A stretch of DNA of 64,000 nt, taken from sequence record PZ445451.1, one strand, 5' to 3'. The notes beneath the pieces were generated by a model, which saw nothing but the letters and a program-made list of their open reading frames with translations, had not been told where the DNA came from and made no database searches. The position numbers and the translations under genes are program-made. The DNA comes from a phage. Of this stretch, positions 9,495 to 55,900 are shown piece by piece; within the stretch, counting starts at the first letter, position 1, and each line of letters starts with the position of its first letter.

Positions 9495-10901
9495 ATGGCA
9501 ACTTTTCGTGATAAGGTAGTTTCCGTAACCCTTACCTACGGTGCTACTTCAATTAGTGAAACACAGTTTGATATCCCTCTAATTCTTACAGGGCATAACG
9601 TTACTGGCAATCTTGTAGATTATTTCACTTCTTCAGACGCACTTCTGCAAGCAGGTTTTGGCACTGCCGATCCAGCTTATAAAATGGCAAAACTACTATT
9701 TGACGGTCTGTTCGCACCAGAACAAGTTATCGTCGGTAAGCGTGATGTTTCTAAAACAACTCTAACTCCAGTAGTTGAAGATAGTGCAACTTACGTTATC
9801 ACTATTAAAGCAAATTCAAAAAGCAAGGACTTCAAGTTTGTTGCCGATGATACTGCAACTGCTCAAGAGATTGTTGTTGGTTTAACAGAAATGATCAACG
9901 CAGACATAGTGTATAAAGAATTCTTCACTGTGTCAAACGATGGTAGTGTTATCACTGTAACCCCAGTTGCAGGTAAATACGCTACTATGGATAGTTCAGG
10001 ATTCACAACTAAAGTAGAATATGCAAATGATATCTTAGAAGATATTGCTAAAATTGCAGATTATGAAAACAGTTGGTTCTGGTTACTATCTGATTCTCAC
10101 GCAGAACAAGATATTATCGATCTAGCAGGTTATGTAGAAGAGCACGATAAAGTGTATTTCTTCTCTACCTCGCAACCAGGTGTTCTAACTAAAGAAGAAG
10201 ATAACATTCTAGAACGCTTAGGTGATATGGGCTACAATAACACTTGTATGGCATTGTGGATGACTAACGCTGATACAGTGTTCCCAGAGGCTGCTGTAGT
10301 TGGTTCTATCTGCTCTGCAACACCAGGTACTACTACCCTGCATGGTAAAACCCTTGTTGGTATCGAGATTGAAAAACTTGGTCAGACAGCAGAAAACTTT
10401 ATCGTTCAACAGAATGGTAATATTTACCGTAAAGAACACGGTGTTCTGTTCTACCGTGATGGTTTCATGGTTAGTGGTTTCTATGTTGACTATGTGGTAC
10501 ACGCTCTGTGGTTCAAAGCTCGTGTAGAAGAATCTCTGTTCGCTCTATTTAAACAGCAATCTATGCTTGGTAGTGGTGTTAGAGCAACTTCTGCTGGTCT
10601 TGCTTTGATTCGTCAGGCTGTTACTGCAAACCCAATCCAAGTAGGTATTAACAATGGTTCTATTGCCAATGAGGTAGTAACTTCAGAGGAAACAGGACTT
10701 CTGGTAAGCCTTAAACCTACTATCTATATCCCATCTCGTGCAGATATGACTGATGCTCAAATCAATGCACGTTTGGTTGATGGTATGGTTATTGAATACG
10801 TATACGCTGGATTCTTCCACTATGTTAAAGTGCAGGTAAACGTTCTGACGAACCGCACTGCAAATAGCCAGAATTCCAATAGCTCTACTGTATCTTCATA
10901 A
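9495..10901 (+). CDS. Tail sheath protein (putative)
   Basis: 468 aa ORF followed by a ~160 aa tube-size gene, chaperone pair and tape measure (canonical contractile-tail order); strong RBS; terminator hairpin downstream. Confidence 0.5.
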   Translation: MATFRDKVVSVTLTYGATSISETQFDIPLILTGHNVTGNLVDYFTSSDALLQAGFGTADPAYKMAKLLFDGLFAPEQVIVGKRDVSKTTLTPVVEDSATYVITIKANSKSKDFKFVADDTATAQEIVVGLTEMINADIVYKEFFTVSNDGSVITVTPVAGKYATMDSSGFTTKVEYANDILEDIAKIADYENSWFWLLSDSHAEQDIIDLAGYVEEHDKVYFFSTSQPGVLTKEEDNILERLGDMGYNNTCMALWMTNADTVFPEAAVVGSICSATPGTTTLHGKTLVGIEIEKLGQTAENFIVQQNGNIYRKEHGVLFYRDGFMVSGFYVDYVVHALWFKARVEESLFALFKQQSMLGSGVRATSAGLALIRQAVTANPIQVGINNGSIANEVVTSEETGLLVSLKPTIYIPSRADMTDAQINARLVDGMVIEYVYAGFFHYVKVQVNVLTNRTANSQNSNSSTVSS

Positions 10902-41039: not shown

Positions 41040-44000
41040 CTAATGACAACTGGCCCATGAGTTACCAACATCGTACCCAGCAGTGAGAGGTACATTAAGA
41101 TTGTAATACTCACCAGCTTTATTAACAGCGATAGATGCTAATTCTCCAGCACGACTGTAGGCTGTAAACCAACCACCTTTCGGAGATTCATGTACGTTCG
41201 CCCAAATCTTGCCAGTACGTTTCTCTTCCTCTTCTTTCCAGGCATTAACTTTATCCAAACATTCTTTATCAATTTTCTTTTGTTCTTCTGGATCATCAAC
41301 TTGAGTCCAACCTAAAGATTCTTTAGAGAACCATTTAAAATGCACCAGATCACGAGTTACTTCAAGTTGTGCTTCATCGTGATATGCAATCATTTGTTGA
41401 ACGAATGACTTATTTTTCCAGTCATCAACAAAAAAGTCAACAGCTAATCCTTCTTCTTCGATAAGATCGTCGTAGATAACCATTGCTCTTTTTGCACAAA
41501 TAACACCACCACTCTGGAACAGAGAGTTAAGTATTGCGTGTGCAGATCGTGTAGGTACTTTTCTACCATCAATACCGAGAATGTATTTCTTACCTGTTTT
41601 AACCCAAAAGTCATGCAGACGTTCTTTAAGAAGCGCAAGAGGTTTTGCAGCTTCCCAGAAAGCATCGTATACAAGCTGTCCTGTATACATATCACTACCT
41701 ATAGTTTTTGCTACTTTTGCAGCTTGAGCACCATAAGTAATACCATACTTAACAGATTTAGCAGGGCTTCGTTCAAACTTACGACCAATAGTGTCAGAAA
41801 TACGTCGAGCCATCATTGTATGAACATCATTAGGTTTTTCCAATAATAGAGCATTACAATATTCGTGTGGTTCCTGCTCGTACCGCCAACAATTCCCTGT
41901 AATCGTGATGCAGTCTTTCTGACGCATAACCCATGTACCGAGTTCTGTTTGTGGACACCAAACATCTTCTACACCCCATTCTTCAATAGTCAGACTTTGA
42001 ACAGGGATGTGAGAGCGGTTAGCCAACGTTGCCACTTTTACTTTCTGGTCTTTCGTATTGAAGGCTACAGAAATATTACCCCCATGAACCAGGTATGAGG
42101 CAGTTAAGGCTGCTTCAAAAAGTTCTCCTGGGTTCTGCGCCCAGCGCCAAACAGGTTTTTGTTTATGTTTGTGCCAGTAACCATCCGCAATCAAAAAACC
42201 TTCCAAGAAAGCCACACGCTCGGCATGAGACATATTAACTACACGTTCTACCCACGGAACATCCCATTTACCTTGTTGAACAGAAGTTAAACTATTTACT
42301 TGATCTTGTTCCATGTTAAATGGAGCATTACAAATAATGTTATCTCCTGTGCAAAGCTCGGCAGTTGTTCTGACTTTAGGCACATAAGTATTCCCTGTAC
42401 TACGAGTATTAACATACCAACGGTGATCTGCTGTTGCACGATAAGTATGGGATTTTCCTTTAATCTCAAACGTCTTACTATTTTTATAGAAGACCTTACC
42501 TTTTACTTTAGTCCATTCTTTAAGTCCTGTTTCTGGGTTATATCCTAAGATTTCATCCCCTTCTTGTAGATCGTGATAACCAACCCAACCTTTACGGGTT
42601 AGTGCTTGTGCATCCATAGGTACACAGTAGTGTGATTCTATTTTTGCCTCAAGAGAATCAAAGTCATAACCAATTTGGAAGTATTTTGGAACTTCTACAC
42701 CAAATAAGTTACGCATTTCATATCCGTACAGAGATGTTACACGTGGGATATTTGCTACTAACCTATGTTTCATACGAGATGTAGCTGCATCACACGTTGC
42801 AGCAGGAGTTGGTATACGACCATCAGCCCTTACTGCTGCCAGATAACCTTTATCGTAATCCTCTTCATCTTCTTCCCAATCAGCACCACCACCTAGAATA
42901 GAGTTCCTACGGTGTTTATACGTAAGATACTGCACAATCTGCGTAGCATAAGGAAACTTTTCACCCAGTGCTTCCAAGTTAGGACAAATATCTTTCTCTT
43001 GCCCTTTTGTAAAGGAAGGGTTCGTAAGCACTTTAACACCACGACCTTTAGCTTTAGCAATACGATCTCTTAGTTTCCATTCCAAAGTTTCTGGTGTGCA
43101 CTCCAGATGATCACATCTGTCCTGGCAGAAGTTAGATGCTAACGTTTGATCAACATAGTCACGAATAGCTTTCTCCATTTGTGCTTCATCTTTCTTAATC
43201 TTAGTGCCAGATTTAAGAGTGATATCTTTATCTTTGTATTCAGATGGACTCCAACCTAAACCAACTAACCAGTTTTTAATATGTGTAGTGTCGTCTAAAG
43301 TAGCAGGTACTGTAGGATCACAAATAGGTTCTTCTGCTGGAATAGGGAGTTTAAACTCTTTACCTAAAGCAAATAACCACCAACCATCTTCTTTTTGTAC
43401 AAGTTCACCAGAATGTTTCTCTGCAAACTTTATCATGTTACTTGAAGGTTCACCATTCTTTTTAAACTGTAGTTTAGGTGGAATGAATGATTTCAAATAA
43501 CCTTTGGTAGCAGGTTTAGGAGGTAGCACAGGTTCTGCCTCTAAACGACATGCTTCCATTCGAGCATCCAGATCACGAATATTATCTTCTGCTTGTTTCA
43601 TATTGAAAGCAAAGCCACGGTGCTCTTGACGTGTAATAATATCAGCTACACGTTGTTCTAAGTTAAATGGTTCAGACCACTTATTATAATCACCCCACTC
43701 TTCCATCAAATAACGGAACACTGCGGTGTTAGCTTTGTTATCGTAAATACAGTAATACAGCATATCTGCTGCAAATGTTTTAAATCTTTCAGTTTCAGGG
43801 ATGTTTTTTCTAAAATCAATTTTAACATCCCCTCCAGCTTTCTTAGATAACTCTGCCAGACTATGACCACCGAAGCGATCAGGGTTTAGTGTCTTACTTA
43901 AGATCATAGTATCACAAATTTCAATGTTACTATTACCCCAAGTATTGTACTTAATACTGTAGTTGAGTTTAAAAAATAATTTAATTGCCAGTAAGTCGAA

Positions 44001-44354
44001 GTTAATGATGTTGTGTCCAACTACTTTGGTAATTTTATAGTTTGAATTACCTTTAAATTTACCTGTTCCATTTACAAAATCAGGAAAATCTTTAAGAGGG
44101 AAATGGGTATATTCTAAATGCTCATATTCCTCCAATCGGTATTCATACTTTCCGTCAGTCTCAATATACGGACGACCATCGAAAAGATATTTATCACCAT
44201 CATGGAAAGCAATAATCTCTCCAGTATCATGACTTTCGCACACAATACAGTGCATTGCAAAACTATCTTTTAAACGATATGGACTTGCCAAGTAATCTAC
44301 ACTTTCGTCATTAAGCAAGTTGTTACTTTCAATGTCGAAAGTAAAAGCTCCCAT
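41040..44354 (-). CDS. DNA polymerase, family A (3'-5' exonuclease + polymerase), intein-containing
   Basis: Exo I FDIES and Exo II HNIINFD motifs; motif A DFDSLEAKIESHY interrupted right after HY; motif B-like KSVKYGITYG; motif C-like YHDE; strong AAGGAGGG RBS. Confidence 0.8.
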   Translation of the reverse strand: MGAFTFDIESNNLLNDESVDYLASPYRLKDSFAMHCIVCESHDTGEIIAFHDGDKYLFDGRPYIETDGKYEYRLEEYEHLEYTHFPLKDFPDFVNGTGKFKGNSNYKITKVVGHNIINFDLLAIKLFFKLNYSIKYNTWGNSNIEICDTMILSKTLNPDRFGGHSLAELSKKAGGDVKIDFRKNIPETERFKTFAADMLYYCIYDNKANTAVFRYLMEEWGDYNKWSEPFNLEQRVADIITRQEHRGFAFNMKQAEDNIRDLDARMEACRLEAEPVLPPKPATKGYLKSFIPPKLQFKKNGEPSSNMIKFAEKHSGELVQKEDGWWLFALGKEFKLPIPAEEPICDPTVPATLDDTTHIKNWLVGLGWSPSEYKDKDITLKSGTKIKKDEAQMEKAIRDYVDQTLASNFCQDRCDHLECTPETLEWKLRDRIAKAKGRGVKVLTNPSFTKGQEKDICPNLEALGEKFPYATQIVQYLTYKHRRNSILGGGADWEEDEEDYDKGYLAAVRADGRIPTPAATCDAATSRMKHRLVANIPRVTSLYGYEMRNLFGVEVPKYFQIGYDFDSLEAKIESHYCVPMDAQALTRKGWVGYHDLQEGDEILGYNPETGLKEWTKVKGKVFYKNSKTFEIKGKSHTYRATADHRWYVNTRSTGNTYVPKVRTTAELCTGDNIICNAPFNMEQDQVNSLTSVQQGKWDVPWVERVVNMSHAERVAFLEGFLIADGYWHKHKQKPVWRWAQNPGELFEAALTASYLVHGGNISVAFNTKDQKVKVATLANRSHIPVQSLTIEEWGVEDVWCPQTELGTWVMRQKDCITITGNCWRYEQEPHEYCNALLLEKPNDVHTMMARRISDTIGRKFERSPAKSVKYGITYGAQAAKVAKTIGSDMYTGQLVYDAFWEAAKPLALLKERLHDFWVKTGKKYILGIDGRKVPTRSAHAILNSLFQSGGVICAKRAMVIYDDLIEEEGLAVDFFVDDWKNKSFVQQMIAYHDEAQLEVTRDLVHFKWFSKESLGWTQVDDPEEQKKIDKECLDKVNAWKEEEEKRTGKIWANVHESPKGGWFTAYSRAGELASIAVNKAGEYYNLNVPLTAGYDVGNSWASCH
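41892..42626 (-). mobile_element. Intein (about 245 aa) with LAGLIDADG homing-endonuclease motif in the polymerase motif A region
   Basis: Starts with Cys after ...IESHY (CVPMDAQALTRKGW); block B TADHRWYV; LAGLIDADG-like VAFLEGFLIADGYW (about 42180-42209); ends ...ITITGN followed by Cys; extein resumes CWRYEQEPHEY...DVHT, aligning with family A sequence after motif A. Confidence 0.7.
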
Positions 44355-44850: not shown

Positions 44851-46623
44851 TTAATAAGAACCAGCAGAAATATTTTCTGGGTTACTTGTGTATTGATCGT
44901 AATCGTGAAGTGTAGCTGTTTTAATCTCATAGAAGAAACTACCTGCTGCACCAGTCTCTGAGAACTCACGGTTCTTTAGGATGTAGCAATATGTGCGGTT
45001 ACGTTCCATAGGATCTTCAGCTTGTTTATCACGCTCCAGCGCAATTGTGATACCAGCACCTTTAGCAAGGAAGCTACTACCCATTGCATCATCTTCTACA
45101 ATATGCTCATTACTATTGTTAGAAGACTTTTTAACGTGTGAAATTACAACAATGGTTATTGCGTACTCTTTCATAATGCGTTTGAGCCACGTCGCAAGTT
45201 CCTCTTGTTGTGACACGTCCATACCAGAAAGCAAATCAGAATAAGGGTCGATAACAAGAATGGTTACTCCGAAATAAATAATCATTTCCAGAACCTTCTC
45301 TTTAATCACATCTACGTTAGCTCCACGATCATCACAAACATAGAAACGTGGTGTTCCATCTTCCCGTTCGTAAAAATCACGAATCTTTTCTTCATTATCT
45401 TTTAAAATCTTTTCCTTCTCTTCTTTCGTTTTACGGTGAAGAGGGATATGCAAGAATGAAGACAGTAAGTTACGAGAATACTTCTTATACGTTGCCTCCA
45501 AAGATAAAATACCAAGAGTATGTTCTGGGTGTGCAAGAATAATGTGTTTCGTAATCTCGTTAACCAACAGTGTCTTACCGATACTTGTTTTTGCAAGTAT
45601 AACAGTAATTTCTTCTTCTACCAAGCCTCCACCTAACATATTCGAAGCAACACGCATGAATGGAGGAAGGGTGATCATTTTAGCTTCCAAGCATTCCAAG
45701 GCTGCTTCATACAGTACGTTAGAAGCGTAAACACCAGCAGGTGTGTACAGTTTAGCTTTGAAAAAGCGATCAATAAAATGATCAATTTTTCCTTCTACTA
45801 GTGCTTGGTTAGGATCTTTAACATCCGTTAGTTCCATCACGTAAACTTTATTACGTGGTAAGATTTTAACACATTTCTCAACTGCTGCACGTCCAGCTTC
45901 ATCATTATCCATACATAGAACAATCTTTTTAAATTGATCTAAGAATTTATAACGATGTTGAAGCTGCTTATGCAGAGATGTTTCGCCACAAGTACCAGAT
46001 ACTACAGCAGGAACAGGATATTTACCACCCTTGTTATAATCTTTTAGCATCTGTGTTGCAGCCAGCATATCGTGTTCACCACCAACGATTAGAATAGTAC
46101 CGCTGTGGTTACGATATTTAAACTCCCCAAAAAGATCACAATCCTTTCCTGTTTCACCGATAGGATGTGAGAAATCTTTTGGATCGATACGTTGTTTATA
46201 CCCAGCAATATTGTAATCTTTAGTTGTAGGGTATAGTGTTGAAATTACTTCGCCAGTAGCTTCATCGTACATATAGCGTACACCGAAAGGCTTAGAGATA
46301 TCTTCACGAATACCGCGATAACCTTTTGGATTAGTTCCAGTGCTGGCTTTTAGTTTATCATGTACTTCTGGATTAAACTCACTACCCAAGATATCCTCCT
46401 CTTCAATTTCTTCGCCGTGTGCATTTAACCATTTTTGATCAGGGATAGTAAAGCCACAAGAAAAACAATGTGCGCCTCGATGGTCTTCATCGGCATCTAA
46501 GCCATATACCATCAAATTGTTTTGTGATCGATCACGCCCTCCTTTCATACAACGAGGACACCCAGTATGTCCTTCTTGACTTAGATCAATGTTATACCCA
46601 TATTTATTTACAACATAAGACAC
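44851..46623 (-). CDS. DNA primase-helicase (Zn-ribbon, TOPRIM, DnaB-like helicase)
   Basis: 590 aa; N-terminal Zn-binding CPRCMKGG...CFSCGF; central acidic primase-like region; Walker A ILAKTSIGKT and Walker B-like ILVIDPYSDL in the C-terminal half. Confidence 0.7.
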   Translation of the reverse strand: MSYVVNKYGYNIDLSQEGHTGCPRCMKGGRDRSQNNLMVYGLDADEDHRGAHCFSCGFTIPDQKWLNAHGEEIEEEDILGSEFNPEVHDKLKASTGTNPKGYRGIREDISKPFGVRYMYDEATGEVISTLYPTTKDYNIAGYKQRIDPKDFSHPIGETGKDCDLFGEFKYRNHSGTILIVGGEHDMLAATQMLKDYNKGGKYPVPAVVSGTCGETSLHKQLQHRYKFLDQFKKIVLCMDNDEAGRAAVEKCVKILPRNKVYVMELTDVKDPNQALVEGKIDHFIDRFFKAKLYTPAGVYASNVLYEAALECLEAKMITLPPFMRVASNMLGGGLVEEEITVILAKTSIGKTLLVNEITKHIILAHPEHTLGILSLEATYKKYSRNLLSSFLHIPLHRKTKEEKEKILKDNEEKIRDFYEREDGTPRFYVCDDRGANVDVIKEKVLEMIIYFGVTILVIDPYSDLLSGMDVSQQEELATWLKRIMKEYAITIVVISHVKKSSNNSNEHIVEDDAMGSSFLAKGAGITIALERDKQAEDPMERNRTYCYILKNREFSETGAAGSFFYEIKTATLHDYDQYTSNPENISAGSY

Positions 46624-46635
46624 AGGATTCTCCTA

Positions 46636-46905
46636 CTAAAATGATTCGTTTGTCTCCATAATATATTGCATTTCCAAATCTTCCATATGTTTCTTAAATT
46701 GGTAAACAATTTCCGATGGGGAAATATCTATATCAAAAAGTTCTTTTGTACCAGAATAAAATCTAATACCATCAACAATAAGACCACCATAATAATCCCA
46801 ATCACTTTCTCGTGAGAAAGGGTTAGGTTCTTCATAATAGTAATCTACTTCAACAATAATAGGCTCTTTATTATCTTGTTTATACTCAAAATCAAAAGTG
46901 TTCAT
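46636..46905 (-). CDS. Hypothetical protein
   Basis: 89 aa acidic ORF, start/stop coupled to its neighbours. Confidence 0.35.
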   Translation of the reverse strand: MNTFDFEYKQDNKEPIIVEVDYYYEEPNPFSRESDWDYYGGLIVDGIRFYSGTKELFDIDISPSEIVYQFKKHMEDLEMQYIMETNESF

Positions 46906-47849
46906 TATAAATCCTCGATAAGCAGTCTGCGGGTTTCATTTAAATCATCAATATTGTAGTTATCTCTTACATACTTAGCAAGAGCCAATCCTTTCTCAAT
47001 ACAAACATCAGGAGATTCGATTAAGTATTCTACAATATCTTTCCACTCTTTAACTGAATCAGCAAAGAAGATTAGATCTTTAAATTCTTCAGTATAATAG
47101 TTCTCTCGTGGCGAACAAACGAGTGGCAAACCTTTAGCACCAGCTTCAAGAATTTTTAAATTACTTTTGGCATTATTAAAATGATTATTTACTAACGGAG
47201 CTATGGAGATTTGATGACCATCGTATGCTTCCATATAACACTCATAAGGACGAATACCTTCATAAACACAATCTGGTTGAATATTTTCTTTAATTTGCAA
47301 CCATTGAGCACTACTCAACTCTTCGTGATCTCTACGAAATCCACATAAAGTTAAATCTTTACCAAAATCAGGAAGAATTGCTAAATCATGTTTATGTGTT
47401 TCACTTCCCGCCCAAACCAGTGGACTTTTAGAATAACGATCTTTAGTAAGAACAAACTGTCCTTCATCAAAAGGTAATCCGTTAGGCACAATATGTACAT
47501 TATCATTGTATTGGCTTAATTCAACCTTTAATGCCGGAGTTGTTGTAGTTACAAGATCGCTTCTTTCAAGGAACCATTTTAGGTCATCTCGGATTTGATT
47601 TTCAAATAGTCCTTCAAGCATATGCCCTTCAGGAATAATTAAAGAATCATCCAGATCCATTACCAATTTAAACCCAAGTTGTTTAAGAGCCAGGAAACCT
47701 GGCTTTCCACGTGTTGGTACTCCATTGAACACAAAAATATTATGCTTAGGATTAATGGTCAGTTTGCGTTTATATGGCAAAATGATTCTATGAAAATCAC
47801 ATACACTATACTTTTCATTTCCGCGTGTGTCAAGAATAATATTAGGCAT
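46905..47849 (-). CDS. Glycosyltransferase-like protein (GT-B-like), paralog A
   Basis: 314 aa; C-terminal NNAKSNLKILEAGAKGLPLVCSP resembles the GT1/GT4 donor-binding motif; paralogous to the next gene. Confidence 0.5.
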   Translation of the reverse strand: MPNIILDTRGNEKYSVCDFHRIILPYKRKLTINPKHNIFVFNGVPTRGKPGFLALKQLGFKLVMDLDDSLIIPEGHMLEGLFENQIRDDLKWFLERSDLVTTTTPALKVELSQYNDNVHIVPNGLPFDEGQFVLTKDRYSKSPLVWAGSETHKHDLAILPDFGKDLTLCGFRRDHEELSSAQWLQIKENIQPDCVYEGIRPYECYMEAYDGHQISIAPLVNNHFNNAKSNLKILEAGAKGLPLVCSPRENYYTEEFKDLIFFADSVKEWKDIVEYLIESPDVCIEKGLALAKYVRDNYNIDDLNETRRLLIEDL

Positions 47850-47860
47850 ATAACTCCTTG

Positions 47861-48835
47861 TTAAAGACTTTCAATAACTTGACGACGCAGTTCATTGGCA
47901 TCTGCAAGATTATAATTAAGACGAACGTGTTCTGCAAGCATCATACCACGATCTTCTGTGTATCTAGGGTTCCTCATTAGCTTGACAACTTCATAATGCC
48001 AAGATGCTTTAGAGTCTGCATAGATAACAGCCTTTGCATCTACCGGATTGAAGTACGGCAGCACAGGAGAACAGATAATAGGAAGACCCTTTGCACCTGC
48101 TTCCAAAATCTTCAAATTGCTTTTACAGTTGTTGAAGTCATTATCTACCAGAGGAGCAATTGCAATACTGTGACCGTCATACACAGACATATACTCACCT
48201 AAATTTTTAATAGCTGGTTTATACTGTGCATTTGGAATTTTACGTTTTATTTTAACCCACTCCGCAGTAGTTAGATACTGACTGTTATTTCCAACAGGTG
48301 CAGAAGGATACACTTCATACCCTGCAATTGTCAATAGTGTATCATCAAATGTATTAGCTACAAGAGATAAATCAGGTTCATGGCTTGCTCCTCCAGCCCA
48401 AACAATAGGCGTGTCAGAATAACGGTCTTTTGTTAAAGTAAATTGACCTTCGTCGTAAGGCAGTGCGTTTCTAATAACGACAACATTACGATTTAAATGA
48501 CGAATTTTGTAAGCTAGGTATTCTGTTGTTACTGTAACAACATCTGCTAACTTAACCATCTCTACAATAGTTTTTGAGTGATTAGTAAATACGCCAGCCA
48601 TATAATGTTCAGGATTAAGCGAATAAAAATCATCTAAATCAACAATAATCTTAACACCTTGTGCCTTCAGGCGTTTAACTTCGTCTGATCCACGAGAATA
48701 CACTCTATTAAAAACTAAAACGTCTTTCTTAGGCTTAAACGTATTTCCCGCAAATGGCATTACAATACGATGGTAATCACAACCACTGCCTAACTTATTA
48801 TCACACTTAAGTACAGGAGTATTAGGATTTACCAT
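47861..48835 (-). CDS. Glycosyltransferase-like protein (GT-B-like), paralog B
   Basis: Shares CD(Y/F)HRI, APLV(D/N)N.FNN.KSNLKILEAGAKGLP and other blocks with paralog A; start set at the internal Met (MVNPNTPVLKCD) that aligns with the paralog and avoids overlap. Confidence 0.5.
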   Translation of the reverse strand: MVNPNTPVLKCDNKLGSGCDYHRIVMPFAGNTFKPKKDVLVFNRVYSRGSDEVKRLKAQGVKIIVDLDDFYSLNPEHYMAGVFTNHSKTIVEMVKLADVVTVTTEYLAYKIRHLNRNVVVIRNALPYDEGQFTLTKDRYSDTPIVWAGGASHEPDLSLVANTFDDTLLTIAGYEVYPSAPVGNNSQYLTTAEWVKIKRKIPNAQYKPAIKNLGEYMSVYDGHSIAIAPLVDNDFNNCKSNLKILEAGAKGLPIICSPVLPYFNPVDAKAVIYADSKASWHYEVVKLMRNPRYTEDRGMMLAEHVRLNYNLADANELRRQVIESL

Positions 48836-49508
48836 ATTTTTGAGCCTCCTCATAAGAGATAAAAGTTTTACCATTGCGAAGATCCTCCAGTGATTGTTTA
48901 TATTGTTCCCAGTTTACACCAATCCCCTGTTCTTTCTCTTCTTTTGACAGATTCGCAAAAGGTAAAGGATTATCTCCAAACACATCGTCAGGATGGATAA
49001 ACGCCATAATTCGAATAGGACATGGTACACCGAGAATGCCTCGGTTCAAACCTGCCAGTGGAACGCGCTGAATCCACTCTGCATCTTCATATCCATAACC
49101 GTGGGTGTATGAGCGGAAATAGCCAGCTTTCTCAATAACTGCACGGGAATACATACCAAACTGGCACATACCTAGTTCCCAAATAACCACCTCCCCTTCA
49201 ATACCTTTTACTTTATCTTTAAAGTATTCAGGCATACCAAAGAAATCCCAACCATTTTCCTTTGCCTGTTTTACAAAATATGTTTCCCACCCTGGAACAA
49301 CAGGGTAGCAATCATCATCAAAAATAAACCAGTAGTCATACCCTTCATCATAAAACTTTTTCATCAGTTCATTACGGGCATATGCAACACCTTTTCGTTC
49401 ACGATCATACTGTACAACAAAAGTAGCATTAGGATCAGTCACAAGATAATCTTTAAGAGGACGCTTACCTACAGTAATAACACCAACACCAATTTTTGTA
49501 TTTTCCAA
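48822..49508 (-). CDS. Glycosyltransferase family 2-like protein (GT-A fold)
   Basis: 228 aa; DxD motif in FIFDDDCYP; YGYEDAEW block typical of GT2 enzymes. Confidence 0.5.
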   Translation of the reverse strand: MENTKIGVGVITVGKRPLKDYLVTDPNATFVVQYDRERKGVAYARNELMKKFYDEGYDYWFIFDDDCYPVVPGWETYFVKQAKENGWDFFGMPEYFKDKVKGIEGEVVIWELGMCQFGMYSRAVIEKAGYFRSYTHGYGYEDAEWIQRVPLAGLNRGILGVPCPIRIMAFIHPDDVFGDNPLPFANLSKEEKEQGIGVNWEQYKQSLEDLRNGKTFISYEEAQKYGKS

Positions 49509-49517
49509 AATAACTCC

Positions 49518-50081
49518 TTAAATAATTTTATTCATGTCTTGACAATGTAAAAGGTGTGAAACAGCTTTTCTAGGATCATCATTACCTAAACGGTAGGTGT
49601 GAAATAAATATAACCCACGTAATAAACCTAGCCTTTTGTTGTTAGCATGTAATGCTTTAGAGAAAATTATATCAAACTGTATTGACCTTTCCTCAAAAGG
49701 GATTTCATTCCACAGACTCTTACGAAAGAGAAGAAAGAATCCTGCTAAGATAGCATCTGTAGGTACTTCCTCTATTGAGTTTCCCCATTCTAGATGTGCT
49801 CTTTTTGCAATCTCAATGTGGTGTAATATATTCGGATCTTCACTTCTTTCATTATTAAATAATTGATATGTTGATCCCAATCTGTTACAAGATGCACCAA
49901 GAACATCAAAATCAGGATTTGAACGGACAATTGATTCCAGCCAAGCAGGTTGTTCTGGAAGAAGAAACATTGTATCAATGTCTCTTAGGCAAATCCAACT
50001 ATCTTCTGGTAAGACACTTATTGTGTCATTGATACCTTTTCCAATATCTCCAGAAAGATAGGGAGTTATGTGAAATATCAT
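49518..50081 (-). CDS. Hypothetical protein, possibly GT-A-like
   Basis: 187 aa; ICLRDIDTMF DxD-like motif; adjacent to three glycosyltransferase-like genes. Confidence 0.35.
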   Translation of the reverse strand: MIFHITPYLSGDIGKGINDTISVLPEDSWICLRDIDTMFLLPEQPAWLESIVRSNPDFDVLGASCNRLGSTYQLFNNERSEDPNILHHIEIAKRAHLEWGNSIEEVPTDAILAGFFLLFRKSLWNEIPFEERSIQFDIIFSKALHANNKRLGLLRGLYLFHTYRLGNDDPRKAVSHLLHCQDMNKII

Positions 50082-50138
50082 ACTCCCTCCGTATTATTAC
50101 TTTAGCATTTTTAGACTAAAAAGTCAAAATGGTTTTAC

Positions 50139-50333
50139 CTATTGATTACGTTTTGCGAGTTCCATTTGGATAGCTAAACTGTGATCTCGTGCTTCCATAT
50201 ACTCTTTATATGTTTCATTAAGATGATCACGACAAACATCACGCAGTTTAATCAGTTTATCTGTAGGGATACCACTAAGATCATCCCAAGATTTTACAAC
50301 TTCACCAGTATCATTGATCCCAATGGTTTTCAT
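50139..50333 (-). CDS. Hypothetical small protein
   Basis: 64 aa ORF in the - strand gene array. Confidence 0.3.
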   Translation of the reverse strand: MKTIGINDTGEVVKSWDDLSGIPTDKLIKLRDVCRDHLNETYKEYMEARDHSLAIQMELAKRNQ

Positions 50334-50589
50334 CTACAACCTCCTTAATTGCTACAGCACAGTTTTTGCAGATACACTGCCCTTTACCTTTAGAAATCTG
50401 GATGTAAGGTTCATTTTCATTTTCGCCCTTACGTGAGTCATATATTACAGAATTGAAGCACACAACGCAAATATTTTTTAAGATTGTATACTTATCAACT
50501 TTCTTTTTTGTTTTAAAGTTAACTTCAATAACATCAGCCATCAGTGTAACACTCCCAGTATATTGCTTTGTGACATAACCATAGAACAT
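50311..50589 (-). CDS. Hypothetical Zn-ribbon protein
   Basis: 92 aa with CVVC...CICKNC cysteine pairs. Confidence 0.35.
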   Translation of the reverse strand: MFYGYVTKQYTGSVTLMADVIEVNFKTKKKVDKYTILKNICVVCFNSVIYDSRKGENENEPYIQISKGKGQCICKNCAVAIKEVVDENHWDQ

Positions 50590-50829: not shown

Positions 50830-51339
50830 TTAGCGATAGAATTGATGTTCTTTGTAGCGGTACACTAGAACCATATCTTTTTCCCAGTGTGCTCTTATTG
50901 TAGATTTTTTAAAGTATAATGCTCCTTTTGTAATATCTAATGCAATTCGTAATTCTGGAAAATGCGTATCGAGATAAAGTAGACGTTCTGCTATAGCCTT
51001 AGCTTCCTTCCACTTATCACGTTCCATAACGTTGAATGTCTTTGTGTAAGAGAATTGTCCTTTTTGAAACAAAACTTCTTTTATAGTATCAGGGAAATAT
51101 GAATCTCTAGCCCTATTCAATACTACATTACCAACAGCAGACATACCGCGCTTTCCTTGATTACGACTTTCTGCATAGATTGCACAAGCTAATAGATTTT
51201 CTTTACTATCACGCTTTGTACACTTGTGAACTACTTTAGCAGTTTTTACGTTTGCAGCTTCGGCTTGCGCCACAACAGGTGTAAATGTAAAAGCAGTTAA
51301 GGATAGTAACGCAATTGCGACAAAGGTTTTTATTGACAA
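50830..51339 (-). CDS. Cell-wall hydrolase, SleB/CwlJ-like (putative endolysin) with N-terminal signal peptide
   Basis: 169 aa; signal-like N-terminus MSIKTFVAIALLSLTAFTFTPVVAQA; core CAIYAESRNQGKRGMSAVGNVVLNR resembles the SleB-family hydrolase domain. Confidence 0.55.
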   Translation of the reverse strand: MSIKTFVAIALLSLTAFTFTPVVAQAEAANVKTAKVVHKCTKRDSKENLLACAIYAESRNQGKRGMSAVGNVVLNRARDSYFPDTIKEVLFQKGQFSYTKTFNVMERDKWKEAKAIAERLLYLDTHFPELRIALDITKGALYFKKSTIRAHWEKDMVLVYRYKEHQFYR

Positions 51340-52086: not shown

Positions 52087-52683
52087 TTACTCGAACCAAT
52101 CGTCGCCAGCGCCAAACGCTTTAACTACATCGTAAATGTCAAGCCCAGCTTTACCTACACCATATGCTTTCAGTTTCCATTCACTGTCTTCCCGTACCAG
52201 GGAGGCAACGTGGCAAATGGTGTTACCTGCAAGTTCTGGAGCCAAGAAGTCAAAGTCCAGCAGTTCAACATTACGTTCATCATCGAAGATTTTAAGGAAA
52301 CCTTCGGTAGCGTGACCAAGGCGTTTCTTACCCGTTTCGTCATCAATAGTAATTACGAATGCAATTTCCTGTGCTTCAGCAGAGATATTATCCAGTGTAA
52401 CATCAATCTGCTCCATTTGTCCTACACCGTCACGAACATCTTCACCTGCAAAAGTAGAACGTTCAGGATCAAATTTCTGTGCGTAGCATACCAGGTGGCG
52501 AGGAGACAACAGTTCCGGCAGACCAGATGCATTGTGTCGGCAAATCAGAGCACTAACATCCAGATCCAGTTTTTCGTTAGATTTCCAAGAGAATTCCAGA
52601 CGAATACGTTTCAGTGCTGGTGCGATCTTTTTCAGAGAAACTTTTTCGCTAGAACCTTTTTTCAGGGAAATTTTCTGAGTCAT
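52087..52683 (-). CDS. terD: TerD-family protein (tellurite-resistance / stress-response domain)
   Basis: 198 aa; colinear with bacterial TerD in N-terminal ISLKKG...VSLKK, DLDVSA, hydrophobic IAFVITIDD block and C-terminal EWKLKAYGVGKAGL. Confidence 0.7.
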   Translation of the reverse strand: MTQKISLKKGSSEKVSLKKIAPALKRIRLEFSWKSNEKLDLDVSALICRHNASGLPELLSPRHLVCYAQKFDPERSTFAGEDVRDGVGQMEQIDVTLDNISAEAQEIAFVITIDDETGKKRLGHATEGFLKIFDDERNVELLDFDFLAPELAGNTICHVASLVREDSEWKLKAYGVGKAGLDIYDVVKAFGAGDDWFE

Positions 52684-52755
52684 AATTTATTATCTCCTTT
52701 GTTGTTAATTTACGTTGTCTATTTTACTAATCTTTTCTACAAAGTCAAGCGTTTT

Positions 52756-53550
52756 TTACGCTTTTGCTCCAAATTTTTTAACCCACTCACCAAACTCTTC
52801 GGATAGTAGTTTATCGTAAAGTTCTTCGTCAGACAAGGACAAATCTGCAATACCGATAAAATCAACATTATCATATTCTTTTGCCAAGTCTTTCAGGAAT
52901 TTAAAGTTTGCATTACCTACACCAACCATAAACCAGTAAACAGGTGTATTGCGGTGTTTGTTCAGTAAGCTACGTACTGCTGAAGTATCCATGTTCTCCC
53001 CGTCAGTTTGGAAGAAAATCATTGCAGGAGTACGATCAACTTGTGCATCAGTATCTACAACCTGTTCTACAACAGTACGTGTAACTTCTACAAGTTCTTT
53101 TTTACCAGTTAGTTTAGCAAGGAAACCCTTAGCCGGAACTTCTTCATACTCAACGACTTCGCGTGTAATATTTTTCATAGGTACACTACCGAAGTATGTA
53201 TCATAGATCTCTTGCATTACTGGGGCATAAGCTGTACCACCATTGATGCAAACATTAGACATACAAGAGCCGACATAATCATCATATACATCAGCCGTTG
53301 CAGGAGGCAGTTCAAAAGAAGAACTATTGAAAGCCCACATGTCAATCTGTGCATTATCATCAAACTTCATACCAAACGGCAGCAGCTTACCTACAAAATC
53401 ACTAACAGTGCCATCACGATACAGCTCACACATACTACCCGAAATGTCTAAGGCGCTACCGACACGAAGAACAACATCGTTAATCTTTTTCTTACGCAGA
53501 GATACAGTAAGAGTTTCTTGACGTTTTTTAAGACTGATTTTATTGGACAT
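52756..53550 (-). CDS. vWA-domain protein (TerY/TerF-like)
   Basis: 264 aa; MIDAS motif DISGSM after a hydrophobic strand, later FFQTDGENMD; N-terminus ISLKK...VSL resembles the TerD N-terminus. Confidence 0.55.
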   Translation of the reverse strand: MSNKISLKKRQETLTVSLRKKKINDVVLRVGSALDISGSMCELYRDGTVSDFVGKLLPFGMKFDDNAQIDMWAFNSSSFELPPATADVYDDYVGSCMSNVCINGGTAYAPVMQEIYDTYFGSVPMKNITREVVEYEEVPAKGFLAKLTGKKELVEVTRTVVEQVVDTDAQVDRTPAMIFFQTDGENMDTSAVRSLLNKHRNTPVYWFMVGVGNANFKFLKDLAKEYDNVDFIGIADLSLSDEELYDKLLSEEFGEWVKKFGAKA

Positions 53551-53551
53551 A

Positions 53552-53821
53552 TTATTTCTCCTTTCTGAGTGTAATGTTAGTAACTTCTAAATCCACTTCT
53601 ACCATTTCTGTATCATATGAAATACAGCTAAGTTGACCTCTTTGTGAACCGTTCAGACACATCGCTTGGTTTGTATTAACCTTAATAAACACTAAGTTTC
53701 TGAACGTATCTAAACCAGAATCTTGATAGGCAACATAATATACAAATGTATCACCTGCGTCAAGTTCTCCAAAACATTTAGGTTCATCTGATTTGTCGTC
53801 TTTGATATTAAATTTAAGCAC
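53552..53821 (-). CDS. Hypothetical protein
   Basis: 89 aa ORF coupled to its neighbours. Confidence 0.3.
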   Translation of the reverse strand: MLKFNIKDDKSDEPKCFGELDAGDTFVYYVAYQDSGLDTFRNLVFIKVNTNQAMCLNGSQRGQLSCISYDTEMVEVDLEVTNITLRKEK

Positions 53822-54377
53822 TATCTCCTCCTTTACCTACTTTCCAACCTAAATAGAAAGCCTCTCTGGTGATTTTTTGCAACTCGTTTAAAGAGATAGT
53901 TACAACTAAATCATCTTCAATTTCTAGCTTTGAGTCTTCTTCTGTCTCAATGCAAGTATTATGCACTTTGTGGTAAGGATTGTCAACACGTTTAAATTTA
54001 TTATTTTCAGTGCTGAAGAAGCAATCTGGATCTTCTTCTCCATCACCCCAACCCTGGTTAGGGTCTTCTTCAGATCTTTCTGTTGGGATTTCACCTGTAA
54101 AGTGCTCTTCTAACACCATAGCAATACCATCCCCAAGATCGGAAGAGAACATCAAATTACAAACTTCTTCCCAAGGCATAGACCACTTGAATCTTTTACG
54201 ATTGCCATGTTTATCTTCTTCGTTAGAGAAAACACTACCATAGCTATCATAATTGCCATACATCTCTTCAACAACTTTACCACCTTTCAAAAGAAATAGG
54301 TAGCAAGGAGAGCCATCGAAAGAGGTAGAAAGAGCAGCATTACCAGACTCTTTGCACAAGAAACTAAAACATCCCAT
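53814..54377 (-). CDS. Hypothetical acidic protein with a C-terminal motif shared with the next gene
   Basis: 187 aa; C-terminal ISLNELQKITREAFYLGWKVGKGG resembles the N-terminal HLTREELQTIMEDAFIDGWKQGQE of ORF 54377..54577. Confidence 0.35.
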   Translation of the reverse strand: MGCFSFLCKESGNAALSTSFDGSPCYLFLLKGGKVVEEMYGNYDSYGSVFSNEEDKHGNRKRFKWSMPWEEVCNLMFSSDLGDGIAMVLEEHFTGEIPTERSEEDPNQGWGDGEEDPDCFFSTENNKFKRVDNPYHKVHNTCIETEEDSKLEIEDDLVVTISLNELQKITREAFYLGWKVGKGGDSA

Positions 54378-54577
54378 TATACACCAGCCTTAAGATCAAT
54401 TATAGCCAAAGTTGTTTCAGAGTGTGTTTGCTCGTCTACAGGTGCAGTCATATGATAATACAAAAAATCTTCAACATCATACCAATCTGACTCTTGACCT
54501 TGTTTCCAACCATCAATGAAAGCATCTTCCATAATGGTTTGTAACTCTTCACGAGTTAAGTGAATATCTTTACTCAT
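54377..54577 (-). CDS. Hypothetical small protein
   Basis: 66 aa; shares the L..ELQ.I...AF..GWK.G motif with the downstream gene. Confidence 0.3.
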   Translation of the reverse strand: MSKDIHLTREELQTIMEDAFIDGWKQGQESDWYDVEDFLYYHMTAPVDEQTHSETTLAIIDLKAGV

Positions 54578-54810
54578 TACACATTCTCCTCTTTTACCAA
54601 TTCCATCGTTGAACTATCAAAACCATCTTTAGAAGAATAGGTATAGACAGAACGTAGTTCTCGCAGGACAGTAAATACATTAGGATCATCTAACCAAGCA
54701 TCCTGGAGGAGAACATAACGATCTTCATTGTCGTACTGGACAGCGATCATAGAACCAGACAGTTTGTAAATTTTAATATTCATAATATATTTCTCCTTAA
54801 AGTAGACCAC
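54577..54810 (-). CDS. Hypothetical small protein
   Basis: 77 aa ORF. Confidence 0.3.
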   Translation of the reverse strand: MVYFKEKYIMNIKIYKLSGSMIAVQYDNEDRYVLLQDAWLDDPNVFTVLRELRSVYTYSSKDGFDSSTMELVKEENV

Positions 54811-55900
54811 GTTTAACAGTTTGAATCATACCATCTTCAAGAGATTGCACTTCTTGAATGTAATCAATACGAGCAGCACGGGCTTCAGTGTTGATTCGGT
54901 TAGTTTCTTCCAACATTTTAACTAAGTTTTCTTGATCACGACGTAATGTTTCAATATCCAATACTTGACGATTAGCAAGTTGTGTAGCTTCAATCTGGTT
55001 TTGTGCAGCCAGATCACTACCCATTGCAATAGCAGCATTAAATTCATTCAGTACGTTGTTCTGTGTATCGGCTGCTTTCTTCTGGCGTAGACTTTCAATA
55101 TACATAGAAAAGTTTGCAGAGTAAGCAGGGATAACGTTATTCACAATATTACGGGCTGATCGCATCAAACTTGCAGATACTTTCTGCATACTTTGTACAC
55201 GTGGCCCCATCTGAACACAGAGTAAACGTAAGGCTTTCAGGTCTGCAATACGAATTTCAAGCAGATCCATAGTATCACGAGTACGTTTACGCTCTTCTAC
55301 TTCATTTTCAGGTAGTGTATTAAGGCGAACTTCTTCTTTTTCATAAGTAGCTGTTAGAAGCTCTATATCCCTGTTTAAGCTAAGAGCATATTTTGCAATA
55401 GCCTCTTCTAAACGTTGCAGATATCGTAAAGAATCTTCTTCTTTTTTCAAGTCTGTTTGGAGTATCTTTACCAAACCTTCAATACGGTTATTGATGGTGT
55501 CAAATTCTCCAAACAAATCTTCTTTCATACCTAAAACTTTCTTAACTAGTTTACCTAAACCTTTAGATTGTTTAATAGAGTTAGGATCAAGTTGCTTTGC
55601 TTGCTTAATAAGTGCAGTTAAACGTTCACTCATTTCATCTCCCTGAGATGAACGCTGGTGTTTAAGCACTTCAGCATTAAGGTTACGAAGAGTAAGTCCT
55701 GCATCAGCACCAACCTGTTCAATCTCTTCACGAGACATTGGAGGCAGCATTTGTACAGGGCGTGCAACAGCAGGGGCATATACAGGACTTGCATCCATAG
55801 CACTTGGAGCAAACAAAGACTTACTTTTTTCTGTTGTTGCCGTGAATACACTCATTTCAGACGGTTTGCTTTTTACGGCACTGATAAAAGGACTGGACAT
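54797..55900 (-). CDS. TelA-like (toxic anion resistance family) protein, putative
   Basis: 367 aa largely alpha-helical/coiled-coil protein of TelA-like size and composition, within a TerD/TerC neighbourhood; assignment by eye only. Confidence 0.4.
   Translation of the reverse strand: MSSPFISAVKSKPSEMSVFTATTEKSKSLFAPSAMDASPVYAPAVARPVQMLPPMSREEIEQVGADAGLTLRNLNAEVLKHQRSSQGDEMSERLTALIKQAKQLDPNSIKQSKGLGKLVKKVLGMKEDLFGEFDTINNRIEGLVKILQTDLKKEEDSLRYLQRLEEAIAKYALSLNRDIELLTATYEKEEVRLNTLPENEVEERKRTRDTMDLLEIRIADLKALRLLCVQMGPRVQSMQKVSASLMRSARNIVNNVIPAYSANFSMYIESLRQKKAADTQNNVLNEFNAAIAMGSDLAAQNQIEATQLANRQVLDIETLRRDQENLVKMLEETNRINTEARAARIDYIQEVQSLEDGMIQTVKRGLL

What the first reader, a model, noticed from the sequence alone, without database searches (positions are those of the whole stretch)
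46905..50081. Cluster of four glycosyltransferase-like genes, including a tandem paralog pair, inside the replication module
Two adjacent paralogous GT-B-like genes (shared CD[YF]HRI and KSNLKILEAGAKGLP blocks), a GT2-like gene with DxD motif (FIFDDDCYP, YGYEDAEW) and a fourth possible GT-A-like ORF lie between the primase-helicase and lysis genes. Their location among DNA-metabolism genes in a lytic phage suggests covalent sugar modification of phage DNA as a restriction-evasion mechanism; glycosylation of virion proteins or host envelope is an alternative. Any hydroxymethylase or other base-modification enzymes would have to lie outside this window.
Basis: partly seen in the sequence, partly recalled or inferred. 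Interest (0 to 1): 0.6.

Follow-up and report, generated by a model that had tools for sequence, protein, structure and literature searches.

The report
Phage sugar-transferase cassette, likely virion glycosylation
Four real sugar-transferase genes sit here in coliphage PaulScherrer, but comparison with many other phages suggests they decorate the virus particle's coat and tail proteins with sugars rather than modifying its DNA.

Summary
The window is Escherichia phage PaulScherrer (Bas60, a phi92-like Justusliebigvirus). There are four adjacent minus-strand glycosyltransferase (GT) genes: two GT-B paralogs (41% identical) and two GT-A enzymes, both supported by structure prediction. GenBank already annotates them as GTs.

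The DNA-glycosylation reading is poorly supported. I found no ThyA-type hydroxymethylase or TET dioxygenase in the genome. The published phenotype is exceptional sensitivity to restriction systems. The same cassette also occurs in temperate prophages.

The cassette, in the order small GT-A, GT-A, GT-B, recurs in about 20 unrelated small phages inside the head-assembly module. Across six capsid-protein families, 32 of 33 distinct capsid tails linked to the cassette end in Ser/Thr, against 10 of 62 in relatives without it (p≈2e-15). In the three cassette-bearing prophages examined, the tail-tube protein also ends in -PTT.

Mycobacteriophage Che8, the proven case of virion glycosylation, has the same Ser-ending tails. 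In PaulScherrer and relatives that carry the cassette, the head decoration protein ends in -TS; the three cassette-free relatives checked end in L, I or G.

Best explanation (about 0.55): O-glycosylation of exposed virion proteins at their C-termini, probably using rhamnose made by the phage's own rmlABCD genes. This is inference and needs mass spectrometry.

The parts
49518..50081 (-). GT4: 187-aa minimal GT-A glycosyltransferase, first gene of the cassette (bas60_0051, PHROG 14179)
48822..49508 (-). GT3: 228-aa GT-A glycosyltransferase (bas60_0050, PHROG 2456), TTG start
47861..48874 (-). GT2: GT-B glycosyltransferase paralog (bas60_0049). True start probably Met14 at 48835 (324 aa).
   Evidence: PHROG 7162 E 3e-149. 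Many homologues carry PF13524/PF13692. Homologue lengths of 315-324 aa and an RBS favour 48835.
46905..47849 (-). GT1: second GT-B paralog (bas60_0048), a duplication specific to most Stephanstirmvirinae
   Evidence: 41% identical to GT2, E 2e-83. Pfam Glyco_trans_1_2 at 26.8 bits, above the cut-off of 25. Other lineages carry one copy.
46636..46905 (-). 89-aa ORF of unknown function (PHROG 4240). It always follows the last GT-B gene in Stephanstirmvirinae-like loci. Membership of the cassette is uncertain.
   Evidence: Gene maps; PHROG hit. It is absent from the prophage versions of the cassette.
5464..5856 (+). Head decoration protein: proposed (inferred) acceptor, C-terminus ...KVVFTS
   Evidence: It ends in -TS in three GT+ lineages (PaulScherrer, phAPEC8, Klebsiella 05F01). 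In GT- relatives CR3, GAP31 and Aeromonas 4L372D it ends in L, I or G.
9495..10901 (+). Tail sheath protein: possible second acceptor, with the S/T/N-rich C-terminal extension ...NSQNSNSSTVSS
   Evidence: The extension is present in PaulScherrer and 05F01, but absent in phAPEC8 (GT+) and Aeromonas 4L372D (GT-). The evidence is weak.
5878..6879 (+). Major capsid protein, C-terminus ...KLTTA. This is the acceptor candidate by analogy with small phages, but its tail does not distinguish GT+ from GT- in this lineage.

Best explanation
The four genes are a phage glycosylation cassette, in the order small GT-A, GT-A, GT-B, with the GT-B duplicated here. I propose that it builds a short O-linked oligosaccharide on exposed virion proteins at their extreme C-terminal Ser/Thr.

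Proposed mechanism. The soluble enzymes act in the infected cytoplasm on newly made structural subunits. One GT primes the C-terminal Ser/Thr hydroxyl and the others extend the chain. They would use host UDP-sugars and probably dTDP-L-rhamnose from the phage's own rmlABCD genes, which lie outside the window. In PaulScherrer the most likely acceptor is the head decoration protein (...VVFTS), and possibly the Ser/Thr-rich tail of the sheath protein. The outcome would be a glycan coat on the particle. Its role might be shielding or stability, or keeping particles from sticking to glycan-binding surfaces.

Shown here: GT folds and catalytic motifs; conservation of the cassette and its gene order; its location in head modules in other phages; covariation with Ser/Thr protein termini.

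Inferred: the acceptor, the sugars, which enzyme does which step, and the biological role.
For: 1. Cassette conservation. The three genes occur in the same order in Serratia, Enterobacter and Pseudomonas prophages (hhalign E 1e-53 to 1e-64) and in many IMG/VR contigs.

2. Position. In about 20 small-phage loci the GT genes lie between terminase/portal and the major capsid gene, or directly after the capsid gene. Among neighbours pooled from 22 such loci, the commonest Pfam families are portal (9), capsid (10), connector (9), prohead protease (6), terminases, Methyltransf_24 (11) and TOD1_MUCI70 (8). Thymidylate synthase and Tet_JBP did not appear in the listed families; singleton families were only partly listed, so each could occur at most once per set.

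3. Covariation. 32 of 33 distinct capsid-protein tails next to the cassette end in Ser/Thr. Only 10 of 62 do in relatives without it (Fisher p 2e-15; within families p 0.007-0.05). In Pseudomonas prophages with 86-93% identical capsid proteins, only the two cassette-bearing versions end in ...APTT or ...SSTT.

4. Tail-tube proteins of cassette-bearing prophages also end in -PTT. 62 of 66 relatives without the cassette do not end in Ser/Thr.

5. Benchmark. Mycobacteriophage Che8 virions are glycosylated on capsid and tail-tube proteins by phage GTs (PMC12363180 and PMC11256854, citing Freeman 2023). Its capsid and tail proteins end in ...KTGS and ...SDGS; Boomer's end in ...PDGS and ...SDGS. 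Boomer gp102 is a homologue of GT3.

6. In this lineage the decoration protein ends in -TS in three cassette-bearing genera, but not in three relatives without the cassette.

7. The enzymes are soluble.

8. The genome encodes rmlABCD.
Against: There is no direct evidence of glycoprotein in any phi92-like virion. I could not read the phi92 proteomics and cryo-EM paper.

In PaulScherrer the cassette lies among replication genes, not head genes. Its capsid protein ends in Ala.

The acceptor assignment in this lineage rests on only 3 versus 3 genomes.

The covariation statistics count related sequences, so the pooled p-value is inflated. 'GT-negative' means only that my three profiles found nothing within 5-10 kb.

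Che8's own GTs (gp108-110) are not detectably related to these families, so the parallel is functional rather than orthologous.

DNA-hypermodification clusters can also sit near structural genes (preprint 10.1101/2023.12.21.572611).
Confidence: 0.55

Rival explanations
1. Modification of a host envelope glycan (LPS core, enterobacterial common antigen, the NGR glycan or an undecaprenyl-linked intermediate) during infection or lysogeny. The purpose would be to block superinfection or stop progeny adsorbing to debris.
For: Phi92-like phages bind the NGR/ECA glycan and the LPS core. Temperate prophages carry the cassette, and seroconversion is a classic prophage trait. Structural neighbours include teichoic-acid and undecaprenyl-linked glycan GTs such as TarP, TarS, RmlT and AvpGT. 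The phage supplies dTDP-rhamnose.
Against: This does not explain why capsid and tail-tube C-termini switch to Ser/Thr with the cassette, or why the cassette sits inside head modules. There is no flippase or membrane GT of the GtrABC type, and all four proteins are soluble. In prophages the genes lie in late operons, which are not expected to be expressed in lysogens.
Confidence: 0.15
2. Glycosylation of phage DNA. This would be either global or limited to sites made by the phage Dcm-like C5-methyltransferase plus an unrecognised oxidase.
For: The cassette is adjacent to primase/helicase and DNA polymerase. GT3 has a weak match to Pfam TAGT (E 6.7e-5) and to PHROG 842, the T-even beta-glucosyl-HMC alpha-glucosyltransferase (5e-5). 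It shares the general R...DDD...ED motif of DNA GT-A enzymes. The genome has a C5-methyltransferase. DNA rhamnosylation has been speculated in the literature. Site-specific modification would not be detected by the six restriction systems tested.
Against: The phages are exceptionally sensitive to restriction. There is no ThyA-type hydroxymethylase and no Tet/JBP or 2OG oxygenase among the larger unannotated proteins, and the thymidylate synthase is ThyX-type. The TAGT match is below the gathering score and covers only profile positions 37-96 of 205. GT3 is closer to PHROG 1579 (1e-10). There are no T4 AGT or BGT matches. No T-even DNA GT was named among the top 50 BFVD matches, several of which are unnamed. 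The cassette occurs in temperate prophages without precursor enzymes in view. Thymidylate synthase and TET are at most rare near GT4-family genes.
Confidence: 0.08
3. Synthesis of a soluble glycoconjugate or modification of another macromolecule, for example a small-molecule glycoside, glycosylated tRNA or a host protein, serving host takeover or counter-defence.
For: The cassette lies in the early/middle region with many takeover-type genes such as the macrodomain, PRTase, NAD salvage and Ter-like genes. GT-B relatives in general act on small molecules.
Against: No specific support. It does not explain the head-module location or the covariation with protein tails.
Confidence: 0.1

Closest known systems
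Virion O-glycosylation in actinobacteriophages (Che8, Corndog, Myrna; Freeman et al. 2023, Cell Host Microbe, known to me via PMC12363180 and PMC11256854)
   Same: Phage-encoded soluble GT sets. The exposed capsid and tail-tube subunits are the targets. The Che8 and Boomer target proteins end in ...GS, matching the Ser/Thr-terminal rule found here. GT3 is homologous to the N-domain of the cluster-F GT Boomer gp102. Methyltransferase genes often accompany the GTs.
   Different: The hosts are Gram-negative. The cassette composition differs (minimal GT-A plus GT-A plus compact CgeB-like GT-B). Che8 gp108-110 are not detectably related. In PaulScherrer the likely acceptor is a decoration protein or the sheath of a myovirus. 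Nothing has been shown experimentally here.
T-even DNA glucosyltransferases and TET-associated GTs (T4 alpha-GT and beta-GT, T6 beta-glucosyl-HMC alpha-GT, Pfam PF20691; Pyle et al. preprint 10.1101/2023.12.21.572611)
   Same: Phage-encoded GT-A and GT-B enzymes, sometimes several in a row, sometimes close to DNA-metabolism or structural genes. They share the general GT-A motif R...DDD...ED.
   Different: There is no hydroxymethyl-base pathway in the genome, no family-level match, and the phage is sensitive to restriction.
Capsid glycosylation machinery of giant viruses (PBCV-1 A064R and related; Mimivirus fibril glycosylation)
   Same: The virus encodes both the sugar-nucleotide synthesis (including rhamnose) and cytoplasmic GTs that decorate its own capsid. 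PBCV-1 and Mimivirus GTs appear among the structural neighbours.
   Different: These are eukaryotic viruses with unrelated capsid proteins and linkage chemistry. The similarity is at fold level only.
Prophage seroconversion systems (GtrABC, TarP)
   Same: Phage-borne GTs carried by temperate phages. TarP is a structural neighbour.
   Different: Gtr systems are membrane proteins that act on the periplasmic face. Those systems sit in lysogenic-conversion positions, not in head operons.

Membership tests
GT-B fold glycosyltransferases, Pfam Glyco_trans_1_2 / Glyco_trans_1_4 (CgeB-like) | Sequence match to the C-terminal nucleotide-sugar-binding Rossmann domain at or above the curated threshold | tested here: met
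   GT1 scores 26.8 bits against a cut-off of 25. GT2 is below the cut-off (14-18 bits), but it is 41% identical to GT1, and dozens of homologues carry precomputed PF13524/PF13692.
GT-A fold glycosyltransferases (GT2-like) | Single Rossmann-like alpha/beta/alpha fold with an Asp-x-Asp metal and nucleotide-sugar site | tested here: met
TET-associated glycosyltransferase (Pfam PF20691), DNA 5hmC glycosyltransferases | Full-length profile match above the gathering score | tested here: not met
   GT3 scores 23.3 bits against a cut-off of 27.5, and only profile positions 37-96 of 205 are matched.
TET-associated glycosyltransferase (Pfam PF20691), DNA 5hmC glycosyltransferases | Partnered with a C5-methyltransferase plus Tet/JBP dioxygenase, or with a ThyA-type hydroxymethylase | tested here: not met
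   A Dcm-like methyltransferase is present. No Tet_JBP, 2OG oxygenase or ThyA homologue was found among 44 larger unannotated proteins, and the thymidylate synthase is ThyX. Proteins under about 130 aa and those already annotated were not rescanned.
T4 alpha- and beta-glucosyltransferase families | Sequence match to the T4 AGT or BGT Pfam families | tested here: not met
   No such family was reported for any of the four proteins at E<=1.
Phage virion O-glycosylation systems (Che8 type) | Phage-encoded soluble GTs | tested here: met
Phage virion O-glycosylation systems (Che8 type) | Exposed structural subunits carry the acceptor Ser/Thr at the C-terminus | tested here: inconclusive
   Strong across small phages: 32 of 33 against 10 of 62, and the tail tubes too. 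In PaulScherrer only the decoration protein (-TS) and the sheath tail fit; the capsid protein ends in Ala.
Phage virion O-glycosylation systems (Che8 type) | Glycans demonstrated on virion proteins | not testable with these tools
   Needs mass spectrometry or glycostaining. I found no report in the searchable literature.
Phage virion O-glycosylation systems (Che8 type) | Homology of the GTs to the experimentally implicated GTs (Che8 gp110, Corndog gp38) | tested here: not met
   Che8 gp108-110 give no hit to the GT3, GT4 or GT-B profiles at E<=10. Only Boomer gp102, from the same phage cluster, is a GT3 homologue. Corndog gp38 was not tested.
GtrABC-type seroconversion | Membrane-embedded flippase, bactoprenol GT and serotype-specific GT | tested here: not met
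   No hydrophobic segments (maximum 19-residue Kyte-Doolittle score <=1.21). No Gtr families in Pfam.

The most novel reading that the evidence does not exclude
A mobile three-enzyme cassette (minimal GT-A, GT-A, compact GT-B) and a C-terminal Ser/Thr 'glyco-tag' on capsid, decoration and tail proteins form a widespread virion O-glycosylation system. It would operate in phages of Gram-negative bacteria, including therapeutic-type E. coli phages such as phi92 and phAPEC8. The presence of the cassette would predict the tag, and the tag the cassette.
Probability: 0.45. Interest if true: 0.75.

Novelty: new variant of a known kind. Interest (0 to 1): 0.6.

Why it matters
If these phages coat their particles with rhamnose-containing glycans, virion glycosylation would extend from actinobacteriophages, the only phages where it has been proven, to broad-host-range coliphages and many prophages of Proteobacteria and Bacteroidota.

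That bears on phage therapy, because Justusliebigvirus and Phapecoctavirus phages are used therapeutically and glycan shields alter antibody recognition. It also bears on particle stability and adsorption.

It would correct current annotations. The repeated claim of 'rhamnose DNA modification' in Stephanstirmvirinae would be retired. Some 'DNA methylase' calls next to such cassettes are probably sugar O-methyltransferases.

The Ser/Thr-terminus rule gives a cheap, testable predictor of which proteins are glycosylated.

Tried and rejected
1. Searches of PDB sequences with the single proteins and with profiles found nothing useful for any of the GTs. Fold search was needed instead.

2. NCBIfam gave no hits.

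3. Neither Freeman 2023 (PMC10527164) nor the phi92 paper (PMC3457257) is held. What I say about Che8 rests on citing papers and on my own reading of its protein termini.

4. I tested whether Boomer gp105, taken as the counterpart of the essential Che8 gp110, is a GT4 homologue. It is not.

5. A capsid-protein alignment spanning several families was too diverse for locus retrieval, so I used single capsid proteins instead.

6. I considered that the second GT-B copy tracks the rml genes. I rejected this because Klebsiella phage 05F01 has rmlABCD with only one GT-B.

7. I considered the capsid-protein tail as the acceptor in PaulScherrer. It does not discriminate (KLTTA against KFTA, TFA and MTSV in GT- relatives).

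8. I checked nine discordant loci (Ser-ending capsid protein, no cassette). One Glycos_transf_2 match turned up among their pooled neighbours. The rest look like background.

9. Literature searches found no report of virion glycosylation or of DNA modification in phi92-like phages.
Full report
**Identity of the window.** Region 46600-50400 is 100% identical to Escherichia phage PaulScherrer (Bas60, MZ501100.1; Stephanstirmvirinae, Justusliebigvirus, phi92-like). It is 98-99% identical to about 55 other phages, including phi92. Window coordinate equals record coordinate minus 675. GenBank already annotates the four ORFs as 'putative disaccharide synthase' (twice) and 'putative glycosyltransferase' (twice).

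**Observation.** Four co-directional minus-strand ORFs are present. In transcription order they are GT4 (50081-49518, 187 aa), GT3 (49508-48822, 228 aa), GT2 (48874 or 48835-47861) and GT1 (47849-46905).

- GT1 and GT2 are paralogs (41% identity, E 2e-83). They belong to a compact CgeB-like GT-B family (Pfam Glyco_trans_1_2/1_4; PHROG 7162).
- GT4 has no Pfam family. It folds confidently (pLDDT 93) into a minimal GT-A with an invariant DxD.
- None of the four has a hydrophobic segment.

**Testing the DNA-glycosylation idea.** Olsen et al. 2020 had already speculated on it for these phages, because the phages also encode dTDP-rhamnose synthesis. PaulScherrer carries rmlABCD at record 119205-122466, outside the window.

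- Maffei et al. 2021 then showed that the phi92-like phages are exceptionally sensitive to all the restriction-modification systems tested, 'despite' this machinery.
- I scanned the 44 larger unannotated proteins of the whole genome against Pfam. I found no ThyA homologue and no Tet/JBP or other 2OG oxygenase. The annotated thymidylate synthase is ThyX-type.
- A Dcm-like C5-methyltransferase exists. Site-limited modification therefore cannot be formally excluded.
- GT3 matches the TET-associated GT family only below threshold and only over its N-terminal third. It is closer to a mycobacteriophage GT family (PHROG 1579, 1e-10) than to the T-even DNA GT family (PHROG 842, 5e-5).

**The cassette elsewhere.** Homologues of the GT-B occur in prophages of Serratia, Enterobacter and Pseudomonas. 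In each, homologues of GT4 and GT3 precede it in the same order.

- In the two enterobacterial prophages the trio lies between the lysis genes and the small terminase gene.
- In the Pseudomonas prophage it directly follows the major capsid gene.
- In Cellulophaga phage phi18:2 a fused GT4-domain protein lies between the minor capsid and prohead protease genes.

I fetched 42 loci with the GT4 profile and mapped them with local HMMs. About 20 small-phage loci have GT4-family genes inside the head module, either between terminase/portal and the capsid gene or just after the capsid gene. GT3-like, GT-B and Methyltransf_24 genes often accompany them.

Pooled Pfam annotation of neighbours from 22 diverse loci is dominated by portal, capsid, connector, prohead protease and terminase families. 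Methyltransf_24, TOD1_MUCI70 and sugar-modifying enzymes are also common. Thymidylate synthase and Tet_JBP did not appear in the listed families; because singleton families were only partly listed, each could occur at most once per set.

**A covarying feature.** Every capsid protein encoded next to a cassette ends in Ser or Thr (for example ...SGT...PTT...TTT...GTT...NLT...SGS). This holds across three capsid-protein families. As a control I retrieved relatives of six of these capsid proteins from IMG/VR with 10-kb flanks.

- Counting distinct tails, 32 of 33 cassette-linked capsid proteins end in Ser/Thr.
- Only 10 of 62 do in relatives that have at least 5-6 kb of sequence on both sides and no cassette (one-sided Fisher p 2e-15; within-family p 0.007-0.05 in four families).
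- The clearest case is the Pseudomonas prophage family. Among capsid proteins 86-93% identical to the query, 18 cassette-free tail variants end in A, P, G, D or E. The two cassette-bearing variants end in ...APTT and ...SSTT.
- Tail-tube proteins behave the same way. They end in ...SEPTT...LEPTT and ...ANPTT in cassette-bearing prophages, whereas 62 of 66 cassette-free relatives do not end in Ser/Thr.
- Among nine discordant loci, one additional GT2-family match was found in the pooled neighbours. The rest look like background.

Two caveats apply. The sequences are related, so the pooled p-value is inflated. 'Cassette-free' means only that my three profiles found nothing in the flanks.

[quoted passage not shown] 2023). 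From memory, which I could not verify because the paper is not held, the glycans are O-linked at the C-termini.

- Che8's capsid and major tail proteins end in ...NKTGS and ...YSDGS. Boomer's end in ...VPDGS and ...YSDGS. These fit the rule found here.
- Boomer gp102 is a clear homologue of GT3 (hhalign 99.3%, E 3e-20).
- Che8 gp108-110 are not detectably related to the three families. The resemblance is therefore one of mechanism, not of orthology.

**PaulScherrer itself.** Its capsid protein ends in ...KLTTA, which does not differ meaningfully from GT-free relatives.

- The head decoration protein ends in -TS in PaulScherrer and phAPEC8 (...VVFTS) and in the divergent Klebsiella phage 05F01 (...ILATS). 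All three carry the cassette and rmlABCD.
- In the cassette-free relatives CR3, GAP31 and Aeromonas 4L372D it ends in ...GSVL...VTSI and ...KVVG.
- The tail sheath carries a Ser/Thr/Asn-rich C-terminal extension in PaulScherrer and 05F01, but not in phAPEC8.
- The decoration protein is therefore my first candidate acceptor and the sheath a second. The sample is small.

**Conclusion.** The four genes are genuine glycosyltransferases, and this was already annotated. The DNA-modification interpretation is unlikely (about 0.08). The best-supported explanation (about 0.55) is O-glycosylation of exposed virion proteins at C-terminal Ser/Thr. The cassette is mobile and conserved, and this would be a Gram-negative-phage variant of the system proven in mycobacteriophages. 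Host-envelope glycan modification (about 0.15) and other targets (about 0.1) remain possible. Everything about the acceptor, the sugars and the biological role is inferred. Virion mass spectrometry would settle it.

Noticed in passing
window 50830-51339 (-): A SleB-like cell-wall hydrolase (Pfam Hydrolase_2, E 6.5e-20) with an N-terminal signal-like hydrophobic segment. It is annotated 'hypothetical protein'. The phage's annotated endolysin and spanins are elsewhere in the genome.
   Followed up: partly
window 52087-55900 (-): A tellurite-resistance-like gene set (TerD at 52087-52683, vWA-TerF-like at 52756-53550, plus TelA and TerC family hits). It is unannotated in GenBank and also present in a related metagenomic phage (L014).
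   Followed up: partly
outside the window: MZ501100.1 128024-128995: The annotated 'thymidylate synthase' is a divergent ThyX-type enzyme (Pfam Thy1, E 4e-9). phmmer finds no match to any PDB sequence.
   Followed up: partly
window 47861-48874 (-): The annotated start of the second GT-B gene overlaps the upstream gene by 53 nt. Homologue lengths (315-324 aa) and a GAGGAGG ribosome-binding site favour the internal Met at 48835.
   Followed up: partly
window 46636-46905 (-): An 89-aa ORF (PHROG 4240, unknown function) always sits between the last GT-B gene and the primase/helicase in Stephanstirmvirinae-like loci. It is absent from the prophage versions of the cassette.
   Followed up: no
GenBank MG065639, MG065645, MG065656, MG065689: Records named 'Campylobacter phage' are about 98.5% identical to this E. 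coli phage over the region. The host assignment is probably wrong, or the records are contaminated.
   Followed up: no
L006 6868-7335 (Cellulophaga phage phi18:2 gp38) and many IMG/VR loci: Methyltransf_24 genes accompany GT4-family genes in many small phages. In phi18:2 the gene is annotated 'DNA methylase'. These are more likely sugar O-methyltransferases belonging to the glycan pathway.
   Followed up: partly
window 41040-44354 (-): The DNA polymerase gene is interrupted by an intein. A second intein lies in the UvrD/Rep helicase outside the window.
   Followed up: no
window 59213-61428 (-): Adjacent macrodomain, PRTase_3-type phosphoribosyltransferase and HAD-like genes. With the NAMPT, PRPP synthetase and sirtuin genes elsewhere in the genome, they suggest an NAD/ADP-ribose counter-defence module.
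   Followed up: no
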